This document shows positions 15,650 through 20,050 of a stretch of DNA of 64,000 bases, piece after piece; position 1 is the stretch's first letter; each line of letters begins with the position of its first letter. The translations under genes and the position numbers were made by a program. The stretch lies in NCBI RefSeq assembly GCF_009914755.1, contig NC_060925.1; one strand, written 5' to 3'. This stretch comes from the human T2T-CHM13v2.0 reference genome, Homo sapiens. The notes under the pieces were generated by a model. That model did not search any database. It was not told the DNA's origin and worked only from the letters and a program-made list of their open reading frames with translations.

Positions 15650-18347
15650 TTTTTCATAAACTGCTTTATTTATAGTAACAAAACAAATATTTTTTTTTGA
15701 GACAGAGTCTTGCTCTGTTGCCCAGGCTGGAGCACAGTGGCATGATCTCTGCTTACTGCAACGTCTGCCTCCTGGGTTCAAGTGATTCTCATGCCTCAGC
15801 CTCTGAAATAACTGGAATTACAGGCACGTGCCACCGTGCCTGGCTCAATTTTTGTATTTTTAGTAGAGACGAGGCTTCACCATGTTGGCCAGGCTGGTCT
15901 CGAACTCCTGACCTAAAGTGACCCACCCACCTCAGCCTGCCAAAGTGTTGGGATTACAGGCATGAGCCACCATACCCGGTCCTTTTTTTTGGGGTTGGGG
16001 GGAGGGGGGAGACAGGTTTTTATTTTTTTTAAGATGGAGTTTCGCTCTTGTTGCCCAGGTGGAGTGCAATGGCGTGATCTTGGCTCACTGCAACCTCCGC
16101 CTCCTGGGTTCAAGGGGTTCTCCTGCCTCAGCTTCTCGAGTAGCTGGGATTACAGGCATGTGCTACCATGCCCAGCTAATTTTGTATTTTTAGTAGAGAC
16201 ATGGTATCTCCATGTTGGTCAGGCTGGTCTCAAACTCCTGACCTCAGGGGATCCACCCGCCTCGACCTCCCAAAGTGCTGGGATTACAGGCGTGAGCCAC
16301 CGTGCCTGGCCCCTGGGGACAGTTTTTTCAGAGGCCAGATGTCAACTTCCATCTCTGCATGCCTCAGTTTACCCATCATTGCATCTCAGCACAGAGCCCC
16401 ATCATGTAGGGTTACTTTGGGTTATTCTGCCCCTGTGAGAAGAAACTATTGGCAGCAAAGCCATACTGCCCTCTGCCACCTCTCCCCAGCGCAGGCCAGC
16501 CACGCCTCTGCCATGCAGTCAACCGTTGGCTTTGTGGGTGGCCTGGAGCCAGGCCAGCACCCCTGCCAAGCCAGTGCCTTCACGGGCGCTGATTTCTGCC
16601 GTGATGATATTCTGCTTGGCACAAGCAATGATGTCTGGAAGCCTGATTAATAACTTCATCTCCTCCGTGGACATGTAACAGGGTAGGTCGCTGGAGTCAA
16701 AGAAGTGCCGCATCAGAGTAGTGGCTGCCACACACCTGCCCCGGATCCCCAGCCACACCACCTCCCTACCAAGCCATGCTCCTAGCTGTACTCCCAGGGA
16801 TCCCCCGCCCCCACTGTGCTCCCTCTCAGCTCAGAGACACATACATTTTATTGAAAAGTAGTATCAGCACCAATGCTTCTGCAAATTGTTCTGCAGAAAG
16901 GAGACCTAAGAGCTGCACACAGGATGCAGAGAGCTGGGTGGGGTCAGAGGCGTCCATCATGAACTGGGGAAAAAGAAAAAGATGGCAGCAACGCCCTGCT
17001 GCCAAACTTCCTCCCCTGGGCCTCACTGACCTGGCACTGGGAGAGCAAAACTGCATTTTTTTTTTGAGGCGGAGTCTCACTCCAAGTGCAGCGGCACAAT
17101 CTCGGCTCACTGCAACCTCCGCCTCCCGGGTTCAAGTGATCCTCCTGCCTCAGCCTCCCGAGTAAGTGGGACTACAGATGCCCACCACCACGCCCGGCTA
17201 ATTTTTTGTGCTTTTAGTAGAGACGGGGTTTCACCATGTTAGCCAGGATGGTCTCCATCTCCTGACCTCGTGATTCGCCCACCTCGGCCTCCCAAAGTGT
17301 TGGGATTACAGGAGTAAGCCACCACACCCAGCCCAAAACAGCTTTAAACAAAGCTTTGGGAACAGGCAGAAGCAGAGGGAATCGAGTTTTATGAGGACGA
17401 CCCGGTGTCACTCGTCTCTGTCCTCATGTGGCCATCAGTTCTCCATACTGGAATCTGGGGCACAGGTCTTGTCAAGATGGGACCAACCAGAGGCACGTGT
17501 AAATCCAACATAAACACAGACGTACCAGGGAGCAACACAGAGAGCTAAGTCTGTTCTCTGCGGAGCAGCAGCCCTGCCCTCAGCAAGCCCTGTGTGAGCT
17601 CCTACCGTGGGCCTGGGAGCGCAAGCACCAGAAACCAGATGGGGTGCCCAGCAGGAAGCAACACTAGCGTAGGACCTGTTTCCATGACTAGTATAGTCAC
17701 TAAATAACCAAAATGCCGTTCTACACACAGCAAGGTTGGGGACTGGACATTACAGAAATGTAGACACACTTCCCTAAAGGAAGCCCATATAGGATTACAA
17801 CCTACCAGGAGAGAATGACAGTTTCCATAGTAACTGGACCAGATGGGGCCCATGCACCACCCCCGCCAGCTCCCGGATGGTGATCTTTCTGTGTGCCACG
17901 ATGTCAGTAAGATTTCCACCTATAGGAAAAACCACGATGCAAGGAGAACAATACAAGCTCTGTCCCGTTGTGAACTCCTGAAGAGCACCGTGCCCACACC
18001 TTACACGGTGGCCTGAACCCCGCAGAGCCATTCTCCAAGGGCTCAGTCCCTAAGGCAGGAACGGCGAGCAGGGACCGACGCCCATCAGTAGTTAGACTTG
18101 CTGTGGGGGCGACCAGCCACAGGAACCCGTTGCGAGGGGAGAGGAAATGCCTGTGGAGGGCGGCAGGCCCCCACATCCCACGCCAGGTATCCTCAGCTCA
18201 GGCTGTCCCTGGCTCCTGAAGGCTGGCCTTAAGTCAAGACCTGACCCTCTGCGCCTCGACGTGAACTTAGAGGAGCCCGAGCTCTTCGCCAAGCGCAGAG
18301 CTGGCCCTACTCAACTCCACCCGCGGGGCGGACGCCTACTGTGGGCC
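15650..18347 (-). pseudogene. 5'-truncated, intron-containing copy of ARL16 (end of exon 2, introns 2-4, exons 3-5, 3' UTR)
   Basis: Minus-strand exons 17919-17806, 16963-16845 and 16690-16519 encode NLTDIVAHRKITIREL / CMGPIWSSYYGNC / MDASDPTQLSASCVQLLGLLSAEQ / [50 protein letters not shown], which I recognise as ARL16, separated by GT-AG introns. The 3' boundary is uncertain (15650-16000). Confidence 0.9.
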
Positions 18348-20050
18348 ATTTTGATTCTTAAAACAAACAAATAAACAAACAAAAAACCTAGATAAGCTGG
18401 GAATGATGGTGCACACCTGTAATCCCAGCTACCCTGTAAGCTGAGGCAGGAGGATAGCTTGAGGCCAGGAGTTCAAATCTAGCCTAGGCTGCATAGGGAG
18501 ACCCTGTCTCTAAGAACAAACAAACGAACAAACAAAAACCTATATAAACAAAATCTGAAAAGATATTCAAATCTTGGGATAGAGACCAGGACTTGGCATT
18601 TTAATAAGCACTCCAGTGATTCTTTTATTTTTCCCAAGGGATTCTAAAATGCACATTGAAACTTGAGAACCACTGGCCCAGAGGTTAAGAACATGAACCT
18701 TGGAATCAGAGGCCTGGTGTGGTGGCTCATGCCGGTAATCCCAGCACTTTGGGAGGCCAAAGTAGGCTGATCTCTTGAGGTCAGGAGTTTGAGACCAGCC
18801 TTGCCAGCATGACAAAACCCCATCTCTACTAAAAATACAAACATTACCAGGGCATGGTGGCGTGCCCCTGTAATCCCAGCTACTCAGGAGGCTGAGGCAC
18901 AAGAATCACTTGAACTCTGGAGGTGAAGGTTGTAGTGAGCCAAGATCACATCACTGCACTCCAGCTTGGGCGACAGAGCGAGAACTTGTCTCAAAAAAAC
19001 ACAACAAAAACAAAACAAAACAAAACAAACCACAAACATACAAGCCCTGGAAACAGAGAATTCTGGCTCCATTACTTGCTTTGGATAAGACTTTTTTTTT
19101 TTTTTTGATAATGGAGTTTCGCTCTTGTTGCCCAGGCTGAAGTGCAATGGCGTGATCTCTGCTCACCGCAACCTCCACCTCCCAGGTTCAAGCGATCCTC
19201 CTGCCTCAACCTCCCAAGTAGCTGGGATAACAGGCATGCACCACCAAGCCCAGGTAATTTTGTATTTTCAGTAGAGACGGGGTTTCTCCATGTTGGTCAG
19301 TCTGGTGTCTAACTCCTGACCTCAGGTGATCCACCCTCCTCGGCATCCCAAAGTGCTGGGATTACAGGCGTGAGCCACAGTGCCCAGCCCGGATAAGACT
19401 TTTAACCTTTCTAAGCCTGTTTGATCTTCTGTAAAATGGGATAACTCCCCTCAGAGAATTGTGGTTAAGCCACAGTGCCTGGAATACAGCCCATGCTCAG
19501 TAAACTTCAGCTACCACTTTTTTTTTTCTTTTTTCTTTTTTTTGAGACAGAGTCTTGCTCAGTCACCCAGGCTGGAGTGCAGTGGCACGATCTCTGCTCA
19601 CTCCAACCCCTGCCTCCCAGGTTGAAGTGATCCTCCTGCCTCAGCCTCCCGAATAGCTGGGATTATAGGTGCCTGCCACCATGACCAGCTAATTTTTTGT
19701 ATTTTTAGTAGAGACGGGGTTTCATCATATTGGCCAGACTGGTCTGGAACTCCTGATCTCAAGCAATCCACATGCCTCGGCCTCCCAAAGTGCTGGGATT
19801 ACAGCCACCACGCCCAGCAATCACTTTTATTTAAATAAACAACTTGCAGCCGGGAATCACTTGAACCGGGGAGGCGGAGGTTGCAGTGAGCCAAGATCGT
19901 GCCACTGCACTCCAGCCTGGGCAACACAGCAAGACTGTCTTAAAAAAATAAATAAAATAAAATAAGTAAACAATTTGCAGCAAATGAGGGTGGGAGAAGG
20001 CATCTTCTCTGGAGATCTGAGAGTAATGGCAGTCTTCTTGTCCTCTCTAG

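What the first reader, a model, noticed from the sequence alone, without database searches (positions are those of the whole stretch)
15650..18360. Intron-retaining, 5'-truncated ARL16 copy inserted antisense in the ZP pseudogene
Seen: ARL16-like exons 3, 4 and 5 separated by GT-AG introns (16691-16844, 16964-17805, 17920-18339). The copy stops abruptly ~8 nt into exon 2 (GGCCCACA|GTAGGC at 18347-18334), and the flank reads CATTTTGATTCTT/AAAA, an L1-endonuclease-like site. Candidate poly(A) signals lie on the - strand at 16018-16023 and 15665-15670. Established: ARL16 is a compact gene on another chromosome, and ordinary retrocopies lack introns. Inference: L1-mediated retroposition of a fully unspliced transcript, or a very small DNA-level duplication. 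I could not find a convincing matching TSD or long poly(A) tail at the 3' end.
Basis: partly seen in the sequence, partly recalled or inferred. Interest (0 to 1): 0.75.

Follow-up and report, generated by a model that had tools for sequence, protein, structure and literature searches.

The report
Unspliced, 5'-truncated ARL16 retrocopy pseudogene
A dead 2.3-kb copy of the chromosome-17 gene ARL16 lies on chromosome 1 with three introns still in place and ends at the parent gene's likely poly(A) site, so it was most likely copied from an unspliced RNA, which is a rare but already known way of making a pseudogene.

Summary
Window 18347-16008 (- strand) is colinear with chr17 82600437-82598083, which is ARL16. 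Substitution identity is 92.4%, or 90.4% counting gaps. The copy starts 8 nt before the exon-2 donor.

Homology stops 11 nt after the last AATAAA, at a CA dinucleotide. That AATAAA pair is the only canonical signal in the 2.1 kb after the ARL16 stop codon. No flanking chr17 DNA was co-copied. A 15-nt C-rich spacer and eight A's follow, then an Alu.

Three points weigh against this reading. There is no significant target-site duplication (only AAAAT). The A tract is short and not adjacent to the homology end. Use of that poly(A) site by ARL16 mRNA is predicted, not shown.

Best reading (0.6): LINE-1-mediated retroposition of an unspliced, polyadenylated ARL16 pre-mRNA, roughly 30-45 Myr ago. 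Other RNA-templated variants get 0.2 and a small DNA duplication gets 0.2.

The copy has no promoter and no P-loop exons, and it evolves neutrally. RefSeq already lists the locus (LOC100420494), but only in part. Placement "inside the ZP pseudogene" is unverified. This is a new member of a known kind and of modest interest.

The parts
18340..18347 (-). Remnant of ARL16 exon 2 (last 8 nt, GGCCCACA). This is the 5' truncation point of the copy.
   Evidence: Local alignment starts at 18347 = chr17 82600437. The upstream 30 nt are unrelated to the parent.
17920..18339 (-). Retained ARL16 intron 2 (GT..AG kept).
   Evidence: 92.6% identity over 407 aligned nt; alignment.
17806..17919 (-). ARL16 exon 3. 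It carries a 4-nt deletion and, about 50 nt later, a 4-nt insertion. Together these scramble 21 codons and then restore the frame.
16964..17805 (-). Retained ARL16 intron 3. It includes an Alu (about 17334-17050) that is also present at the same place in the parent.
   Evidence: Identity is 93.0%, 90.3% (Alu) and 94.2% by segment. SRP-like (Alu) Rfam hit at 17064-17198.
16845..16963 (-). ARL16 exon 4, with a 3-nt in-frame insertion.
   Evidence: 95.7% identity. Weak Pfam Arf match to profile positions 87-122, E 0.05, below the cut-off.
16691..16844 (-). Retained ARL16 intron 4 (GT..AG kept).
   Evidence: 86.4% identity over 154 nt.
16519..16690 (-). Coding part of ARL16 exon 5, with the stop codon at the ancestral position (16521-16519).
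   Evidence: 96.5% identity. The published reverse CDS primer matches 16519-16541 with 2 mismatches.
16008..16518 (-). ARL16 3'UTR. It includes a sense-oriented Alu (16311-16031) shared with the parent, and that Alu's A-rich tail carries AATAAA (16024-16019). Homology ends at 16008.
   Evidence: In the parent, the only AATAAA hexamers within 2.1 kb after the stop are at 82598107 and 82598099.
15983..16007 (-). Non-parental tail: a C-rich spacer followed by eight A's (15990-15983). This may be a decayed or interrupted poly(A) tail.
   Evidence: Sequence. The parent reads differently after 82598083.
15690..15982 (-). Full-length Alu ('Alu1') with an A9 tail, absent from the parent and abutting the A tract. 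Whether it inserted before or after the ARL16 copy is unresolved.
18348..18387 (-). 5' flank of the insertion: T-rich low-complexity DNA at the edge of a single Alu monomer lying on the + strand (18396-18512).

Best explanation
This is a retrocopy of an unspliced ARL16 transcript.

Proposed mechanism:
1. A polyadenylated ARL16 pre-mRNA that still held introns 2, 3 and 4 served as the template. It used the gene's Alu-tail-derived AATAAA signal.
2. It was reverse-transcribed from its poly(A) end by the LINE-1 ORF2 protein at a nick in T-rich DNA on chromosome 1 (target-primed reverse transcription).
3. Synthesis or the template ended 8 nt before the exon-2 donor. Exon 1, the U12-type intron 1, most of exon 2 and the promoter were therefore never copied.
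4. An Alu later landed in, or already sat next to, the short A tail.

The copy has been a neutrally decaying pseudogene since, for about 30-45 Myr. That age is inferred from about 8% divergence and recalled primate substitution rates.

Shown: colinearity, the retained introns, both ends, and the absence of co-copied flank.
Inferred: the RNA intermediate, the role of LINE-1, the age, and the order of the Alu insertion.
For: 1. The 3' end of homology (16008 = chr17 82598083) lies 11 nt after the last AATAAA and at a CA dinucleotide. The two overlapping-region AATAAA hexamers are the only AATAAA or ATTAAA in the 2.1 kb after the ARL16 stop codon.
2. An A8 tract lies 15 nt further on.
3. The copy lies wholly inside one transcription unit, in sense continuity. 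Neither flank has any chr17 homology. In one search, only Alu-type HSPs appear besides the main one among the 40 listed. In one search the 5' flank hits only itself and Alu-monomer repeats elsewhere. In one search the 3' flank hits only itself.
4. 5' truncation with no promoter is the usual outcome of LINE-1 reverse transcription (recalled knowledge). The start-codon primer has 0 matches in the window at up to 3 mismatches.
5. The target is T/A-rich low-complexity DNA.
6. The kind is documented:
   - Partially processed pseudogenes: passages of PMC3491395 with its Table S3; passages of PMC1810550; passages of PMC3449122.
   - LINE-1-mediated insertions of intronic or unannotated RNA, polyadenylated 10-30 nt after a signal: PMC5110952, parts 1-2 of the text.
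7. ARL16 is reported to show intron-retention events (passages of PMC13216214). Its retained introns are short (420, 842 and 154 nt).
Against: - No significant target-site duplication. For 5'-flank suffixes of 8-18 nt, 167 to 500 of 500 shuffles match the downstream 1.1 kb as well. The 20-nt suffix gives 35 of 500 and reflects (TTTG)n similarity. Only a 5-nt AAAAT repeat fits the geometry, and it has no statistical weight.
- The A tract is only 8 nt long and is separated from the homology end by a 15-nt C-rich stretch that is neither parental nor poly(A).
- All three covered introns are retained, which is what a DNA copy would show and is rare among retrocopies. GENCODE listed 8 partially spliced pseudogenes, and ARL16 is not among them.
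- Use of this poly(A) site by ARL16 mRNA is predicted from sequence only. I had no transcript data.
- The 3'UTR Alu shows no A-to-G excess on the copy lineage (0 of 13 polarised changes), so there is no RNA-editing footprint. None is strongly expected, because both Alus are in the same orientation.
Confidence: 0.6

Rival explanations
1. A small DNA-level interchromosomal duplication. A 2.3-kb genomic fragment of the ARL16 locus was captured at a double-strand break, or copied by replication template switching, into chromosome 1. Its endpoints fall by coincidence in exon 2 and just past the poly(A) signal.
For: - Every intron in the copied interval is present with intact splice dinucleotides, and both parental Alus are in place.
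- There is no significant TSD.
- There is no clean poly(A) tail directly at the homology end.
- At 2.3 kb and about 90% identity it would qualify as a small segmental duplication.
Against: - The 3' endpoint would have to fall by chance within about 10-20 nt of the one canonical poly(A) signal after the stop. My estimate of that chance is roughly 1% for an endpoint placed at random over a few kb.
- The endpoint would also have to lie next to an A tract.
- No non-transcribed flank was copied.
- Neither junction lies inside an Alu, as Alu-mediated duplication junctions often do (recalled). The 3' junction is about 10 nt beyond the complete shared Alu tail.
- No microhomology is seen at the 5' junction.
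Confidence: 0.2
2. An RNA-templated insertion without endonuclease-type target-primed reverse transcription. A cDNA of the unspliced ARL16 transcript patched a pre-existing chromosomal break. This corresponds to endonuclease-independent LINE-1 insertion, or a 'class 2' templated sequence insertion.
For: - It has the same transcript-bounded extent as the best explanation.
- It accounts for the lack of a TSD and for the odd 15-nt non-templated C-rich filler at the 3' junction.
- Such events are described as lacking TSDs and carrying filler or microdeletions (PMC5110952, text parts 1-2).
Against: - Class 2 events are described as lacking a poly(A) signal and tract. Here the copy ends at a poly(A) site and an A8 tract follows.
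- The site is T/A-rich, as the LINE-1 endonuclease prefers.
- Reported experimental patches are short, 73-414 bp, against 2.3 kb here.
Confidence: 0.12
3. A chimeric retrocopy made in one event. LINE-1 reverse transcriptase first copied an Alu RNA (the Alu at 15982-15690) at the target, then switched template onto the poly(A) end of the ARL16 pre-mRNA. ARL16 copy, A8 and Alu would then share a single insertion site.
For: - The full-length Alu starts directly after the A8 tract, in the same orientation as the ARL16 copy.
- Its age proxies are not distinguishable from those of the Alus already in the template. CpG retention is 4 of 21, against 8 of 21 (copy) and 4 of 21 (parent) for the shared 3'UTR Alu.
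- The only geometry-compatible direct repeat (AAAAT) flanks the composite, not the ARL16 part alone.
Against: - AAAAT has no statistical weight.
- Alu insertion into pre-existing A tracts is common (recalled) and explains the same layout.
- The age proxies are too coarse to order the events.
Confidence: 0.08

Closest known systems
Partially processed (semi-processed, partially spliced) pseudogenes. Examples are the eight listed by GENCODE (six from FAM108A1, one each from TRMT11 and KCTD9), the beta-actin copy that keeps intron 3, and rodent preproinsulin I.
   Same: A retrocopy made from a transcript that still held parental intron sequence. The boundary coincides with the transcript's 3' end, the location is new, and no promoter was copied.
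   Different: Here all introns in the copied interval (3 of 3) are retained, so no splicing event proves an RNA origin. The case rests on the 3' end alone. The copy is 5'-truncated, and TSDs are not demonstrable.
Class 1 templated sequence insertions: LINE-1 ORF2-mediated insertion of non-LINE RNA, including intronic or unannotated transcripts (Onozawa and Aplan, PMC5110952).
   Same: Unspliced genomic-looking sequence from a distant locus, ending 10-30 nt after a poly(A) signal, followed by A's, inserted in T-rich DNA.
   Different: Those are recent polymorphisms with clear TSDs of at least 5 bp and 10-40 A's. This one is fixed in the assembly and about 8% diverged. It has only a nominal 5-nt repeat and an 8-nt A tract behind a C-rich spacer.
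Duplicated (unprocessed) pseudogene. A copy that keeps its introns would ordinarily be filed here.
   Same: The parental exon-intron structure is preserved. RefSeq lists LOC100420494 simply as a pseudogene (hub table).
   Different: No flanking non-transcribed DNA was copied. The copy is an isolated 2.3-kb interchromosomal piece, and its 3' end sits at the parent's poly(A) signal.

Membership tests
ARL16-derived sequence (ARF-like GTPase 16) | Colinear nucleotide homology to the ARL16 locus across exons | tested here: met
   92.4% substitution identity over 2289 aligned nt. The parent is fixed as ARL16 by exact hits of the published CDS primers. The parent's exon model gives 173 codons, as published for NM_001040025.3 (passages of PMC9250359).
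ARL16-derived sequence (ARF-like GTPase 16) | Complete Arf-type GTPase domain, including the P-loop encoded in exon 1 | tested here: not met
   Exon 1 and all but 8 nt of exon 2 are absent. Single-exon Pfam Arf matches are all below the 22.3-bit cut-off: copy exon 4, 13.5 bits; copy exons 3 and 5, no match.
LINE-1-mediated retrocopy (processed pseudogene) | Parental introns absent | tested here: not met
   Introns 2, 3 and 4 are all present with GT..AG.
LINE-1-mediated retrocopy (processed pseudogene) | 3' boundary at the parent's polyadenylation site | tested here: met
   Homology ends 11 nt after the last AATAAA, at a CA. These are the only canonical hexamers in the 2.1 kb after the stop. 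Real usage of the site was not testable here.
LINE-1-mediated retrocopy (processed pseudogene) | Poly(A) tail directly after the 3' end | tested here: inconclusive
   An A8 tract at 15990-15983 is separated from the homology end by a C-rich 15-17 nt stretch and is followed at once by an Alu.
LINE-1-mediated retrocopy (processed pseudogene) | Target-site duplication flanking the insert | tested here: not met
   No 8-18-nt suffix of the 5' flank matches downstream better than shuffles do (167-500 of 500 shuffles as good). There is only a 5-nt AAAAT repeat.
LINE-1-mediated retrocopy (processed pseudogene) | Insertion at a TTTT/A-type endonuclease site | tested here: inconclusive
   Two candidate sites exist in the T-rich 5' flank. 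Without a TSD or an empty site, neither can be assigned.
Partially processed pseudogene | At least one parental intron retained AND at least one removed, or other RNA hallmarks | tested here: inconclusive
   Retention is met (3 of 3 covered introns). No intron removal is observable, because intron 1 lies outside the copy. The only RNA hallmark that is met is the 3' boundary.
DNA-level duplicated pseudogene or segmental duplication | Co-duplication of non-transcribed flanking DNA, or membership of a larger duplicated block | tested here: not met
   There is no chr17 homology beyond 16008 or 18347 within window 12001-22000 against chr17 82590000-82608000, apart from Alu HSPs. The flanks are unique or Alu-monomer repeats.

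The most novel reading that the evidence does not exclude
This is a genuine LINE-1-made retrocopy of a polyadenylated ARL16 pre-mRNA, with every covered intron retained. If so, transcripts that kept all their (short, GC-rich) introns reached the retrotransposition machinery in the primate germ line. It would also mean that copies of this type are systematically filed as 'duplicated/unprocessed' or only partly annotated, so their true number is underestimated. A bolder sub-reading is that it arose as a single ARL16-Alu chimera by template switching.
Probability: 0.6. Interest if true: 0.4.

Novelty: new member of a known kind. Interest (0 to 1): 0.3.

Why it matters
In itself it matters little. 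The locus is a dead, promoter-less fragment that RefSeq already lists as an ARL16 pseudogene.

It is useful as a clean worked example of a class that annotation pipelines handle poorly. Retrocopy finders penalise retained introns (methods passages of PMC2584115), and GENCODE found only eight partially spliced cases by hand. A copy in which every covered intron is retained can only be recognised from its transcript-exact 3' end.

RefSeq covers just 16325-16973 of a 2.34-kb copy. The full extent and the likely RNA origin therefore correct the annotation.

If orthologous empty sites confirm it, the locus would add a dated, anthropoid-age data point on LINE-1 acting on intron-retaining transcripts.

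Tried and rejected

2. Paralogous empty site. I searched the genome with both flanks. The 5' flank matches only itself plus Alu-monomer repeats, and the 3' flank only itself. The pre-insertion sequence could therefore not be recovered.

3. Other ARL16 retrocopies that would mark the poly(A) site independently. None exist: exon 5 plus the unique 3'UTR has 2 of 2 genomic matches, the parent and this copy.

4. Ordering the flanking Alus against the ARL16 insertion. I used divergence from a pooled 54-sequence Alu consensus and CpG retention. The values overlap, the pooled consensus mixes subfamilies, and the events could not be ordered.

5. RNA-editing footprint in the shared 3'UTR Alu: 0 A>G among 13 copy-lineage changes. 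This is uninformative.

6. Hidden RNA genes in the retained introns, such as a snoRNA. Rfam gave 19 sub-threshold matches in 15000-19000. All are SRP/Alu-like or Alu-derived miRNA families.

7. Possible selection on the copy. Exons 3-5 joined in silico read open for 134 codons, because a -4/+4 pair compensates. However, 21 codons are scrambled, the P-loop exons are missing, and codon differences are 8 non-synonymous to 5 synonymous. I rejected this as chance.

8. ZP-like exons around the copy.
   - In the Pfam scans, 1 of 134 + strand ORFs of at least 40 codons (6000-31500) hits ZP-C, namely 22424-22780, below the cut-off.
   - 0 of 102 further ORFs hit it.
   - In a genome-wide PF00100 search the window's exon scores 19 bits, E 2.7.
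   - Neither that ORF nor the 346-codon ORF has a paralogue in the genome.

9. Literature on the ARL16 poly(A) site or its Alu. 'ARL16'+'Alu'+'polyadenylation' found 2 papers (1 listed), on an unrelated polymorphic AluY.
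Full report
**What is there.**
A search of the window's own genome with window 16300-18400 (- strand) returned, apart from the self-match and Alu hits, one place: chr17 82598390-82600437, 91% identical over query 54-2101.

BLAST of window 12001-22000 against chr17 82590000-82608000 gave a single long HSP. It runs from window 16017-18347 to chr17 82598107-82600437 on the same strand, 90.4% identical over 2360 columns. 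The other 39 HSPs I listed were Alu-type.

The chr17 locus is ARL16. The published forward and reverse CDS primers for NM_001040025.3 (passages of PMC13216214) match it exactly, once each, at the start and stop codons. The exon model read from the sequence gives 40 + 133 = 173 codons. That is the length published for that transcript (passages of PMC9250359).

In the window the stop-codon primer matches 16519-16541 with 2 mismatches. The start-codon primer has no match at up to 3 mismatches.

**Anatomy of the copy.**
On the - strand the copy runs from 18347 to 16008, corresponding to parent 82600437 to 82598083. In order it holds:

| Part | Window coordinates | Notes |
|---|---|---|
| Exon 2 remnant | 18347-18340 | last 8 nt of the exon |
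| Intron 2 | 18339-17920 | retained |
| Exon 3 | 17919-17806 | -4 / +4 indel pair |
| Intron 3 | 17805-16964 | retained; contains an Alu |
| Exon 4 | 16963-16845 | +3 nt |
| Intron 4 | 16844-16691 | retained |
| Exon 5 coding part | 16690-16519 | stop at the ancestral position |
| 3'UTR | 16518-16008 | contains a second, sense-oriented Alu at 16311-16031 |

- All three introns keep GT..AG.
- Both Alus sit at the same positions in the parent, so they were part of the template.
- Over 2289 aligned positions there are 173 mismatches (92.4% identity). Of these, 56 are in CpG context and the split is 127 transitions to 46 transversions. There are also 10 indel events.
- Exons and the unique 3'UTR are 94.5-96.5% identical. 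Non-Alu intron segments are 86.4-94.2% identical and the Alus 89-90%. This is the expected pattern if the parent's exons are constrained and the copy drifts.
- Exon 5 plus the unique 3'UTR has only two genomic copies, the parent and this one (2 of 2 candidates).

**The decisive ends.**

*5' end.* Homology begins abruptly at 18347. The 30 nt upstream are T-rich low-complexity DNA unrelated to exon 2. They lie at the edge of a single Alu monomer on the + strand (Rfam SRP-like hit 18396-18512).

*3' end.* Homology ends at 16008 = chr17 82598083, and the next parental base is A, which makes a CA.
- In the parent, the only AATAAA hexamers in the 2.1 kb after the stop codon start at 82598107 and 82598099. 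There is no ATTAAA.
- Both hexamers lie in the A-rich tail of the 3'UTR Alu.
- The homology end is 11 nt past the second hexamer, inside the usual 10-30-nt window for cleavage (recalled rule; also stated in PMC5110952).

After 16008 the copy reads a C-rich 15-17 nt stretch and then eight A's (15990-15983). A full-length Alu in the same orientation follows (15982-15690, A9 tail), then 52 nt of unique flank. A further Alu (15637-15326) comes next, bracketed by an 11-nt direct repeat AACACTGAGAG.

Neither flank has any homology to chr17 near ARL16.

**What is missing.**
There is no convincing target-site duplication.
- Suffixes of the 5' flank of 8-18 nt match the 1.1 kb downstream no better than shuffled versions do (167-500 of 500 shuffles as good).
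- The 20-nt suffix reaches 35 of 500, and that only reflects (TTTG)n similarity.
- A 5-nt AAAAT occurs both at the 5' junction (18352-18348) and at the end of the A run after the first flanking Alu. It would imply a TTTT/G-type nick, but 5 nt next to an A run carries no weight.
- The A tract is short and does not abut the homology end.

I could not order the flanking Alu and the ARL16 insertion. Non-CpG divergence from a pooled consensus is 7.3% for that Alu, against 5.1% for the shared 3'UTR Alu in both copy and parent. CpG retention is 4/21 for that Alu, against 8/21 (copy) and 4/21 (parent). The pooled consensus mixes subfamilies, so these values do not resolve the order.

**Mechanism.**
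I weigh the evidence as follows.

- A DNA-level duplication explains the introns at no cost. It must, however, place one endpoint by chance within about 10-20 nt of the sole poly(A) signal, next to an A tract. It must also copy no non-transcribed DNA, and it shows no Alu-embedded or microhomology junction.
- An RNA origin explains both ends, the 5' truncation, the lack of a promoter and the T-rich target. It must accept complete intron retention, which is rare: GENCODE found eight partially spliced pseudogenes (six from FAM108A1, one each from TRMT11 and KCTD9), and ARL16 is not among them. It must also accept the missing TSD.
- Retention is not implausible here. The introns are short, and ARL16 is reported as a minor-intron gene with intron-retention events.
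- LINE-1-mediated insertion of unspliced, intronic or unannotated transcripts ending after a poly(A) signal is documented as 'class 1 templated sequence insertions' (PMC5110952).

| Explanation | Probability |
|---|---|
| Classical LINE-1 retroposition of an unspliced, polyadenylated ARL16 pre-mRNA | 0.60 |
| Endonuclease-independent RNA-templated patch | 0.12 |
| One-step ARL16-Alu template-switch chimera | 0.08 |
| DNA duplication | 0.20 |

**Age and fate.**
Non-Alu intron divergence is 89 of 1117 positions (8.0%).

In the shared 3'UTR Alu, polarised against the pooled consensus, 13 changes fall on the copy lineage, 17 on the parent lineage and 12 are shared.

Using recalled primate divergences (human-macaque about 6-7%, human-marmoset about 11-12%), this suggests an origin about 30-45 Myr ago, in anthropoids. 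This is an inference.

The copy cannot make a GTPase, because exon 1 (P-loop) and nearly all of exon 2 are absent. Joined in silico, exons 3-5 still read open for 134 codons, because a 4-nt deletion and a 4-nt insertion in exon 3 compensate. Even so, 21 codons are scrambled, and the remaining codon differences are 8 non-synonymous to 5 synonymous. I read this as neutral decay, not conservation.

Rfam finds nothing but Alu/SRP-like and Alu-derived miRNA-family matches below threshold in 15000-19000 (19 of 19).

**Context claim.**
RefSeq's ZPLD2P model begins at 22759, 4.4 kb downstream of the copy on the + strand (hub table).
- The only ZP-like coding remnant I detected is 22538-22699 on the + strand. 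It matches ZP-C profile positions 75-133, which is an exon-sized piece that also matches as a separate unit in several other ZP hits. It scores 20.2 bits in an ORF scan and 19 bits (E 2.7) genome-wide, both below the cut-off.
- No ZP-like ORF was found upstream of the copy (0 of 102 further ORFs, and none of the other 133).
- A 346-codon open, Ser/Thr-rich frame at 7337-8374 (+) might be an upstream exon of the same former gene. If so, the ARL16 copy would sit antisense in an ancestral intron. This is not shown.

**Novelty.**
The locus is already listed as LOC100420494, 'ARF like GTPase 16 pseudogene', but only for 16325-16973. I found no description of its structure or origin in three places:
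- 'ARL16'+'pseudogene' returned 12 papers, 10 listed. I read passages of PMC9250359 and PMC9714508.
- GENCODE Table S3 does not include it.
- Searches for partially processed or spliced pseudogenes and retrocopies returned 5 and 104 papers.

The kind is known. This is a new member of a known kind, ordinary in consequence, and mainly of interest for annotation.

Noticed in passing
window 7337-8374 (+): A 346-codon stop-free frame that is Ser/Thr-rich (mucin-like). It contains a 90-bp tandem repeat (7685-7886, 2.2 copies) and ends in a Cys-rich stretch. It has no Pfam match and is single-copy in the genome. Nothing is annotated here in the hub's gene table. It could be a surviving large exon of the former ZP-domain gene, or an unannotated coding exon.
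   Followed up: partly
window 22538-22699 (+): A ZP-C-like coding remnant (Pfam PF00100 positions 75-133, 19-20 bits, below the cut-off). It lies just upstream of the first RefSeq exon of ZPLD2P (22759), so the pseudogene's coding remains extend beyond the annotated model.
   Followed up: partly
L010 490-587 (- strand) = chr17 82600489-82600586: ARL16 intron 1 is a 98-nt AT-AC intron. It has an ATATCCTT 5' end and a TCCTTGAC branch-site-like motif 11 nt from the 3' end, which makes it U12-type by recalled consensus. This agrees with a paper that treats ARL16 as a minor-intron gene. The intron lies outside the chr1 copy.
   Followed up: partly
L009 8083-8120 (- strand) = chr17 82598082-82598119: The only canonical poly(A) signals after the ARL16 stop codon lie in the A-rich tail of a sense-oriented Alu in the 3'UTR. 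ARL16 therefore appears to use an Alu-derived polyadenylation site. This is predicted from sequence and not checked against transcript data.
   Followed up: partly
window 15352-16301: Three full-length Alus lie head to tail in the same orientation: the ARL16 3'UTR Alu plus two flanking ones. Tandem Repeats Finder reports them as a 339-bp-period array. They are 82-83% alike pairwise, so they are independent insertions rather than a tandem duplication. The last one has an 11-nt TSD, AACACTGAGAG.
   Followed up: yes
window 17806-17919 (-): In the copy's exon 3, a 4-nt deletion and a 4-nt insertion about 50 nt apart compensate each other. As a result, exons 3-5 joined in silico remain one open frame of 134 codons ending at the ancestral stop. 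I judged this to be chance (8 non-synonymous to 5 synonymous codon differences elsewhere).
   Followed up: yes
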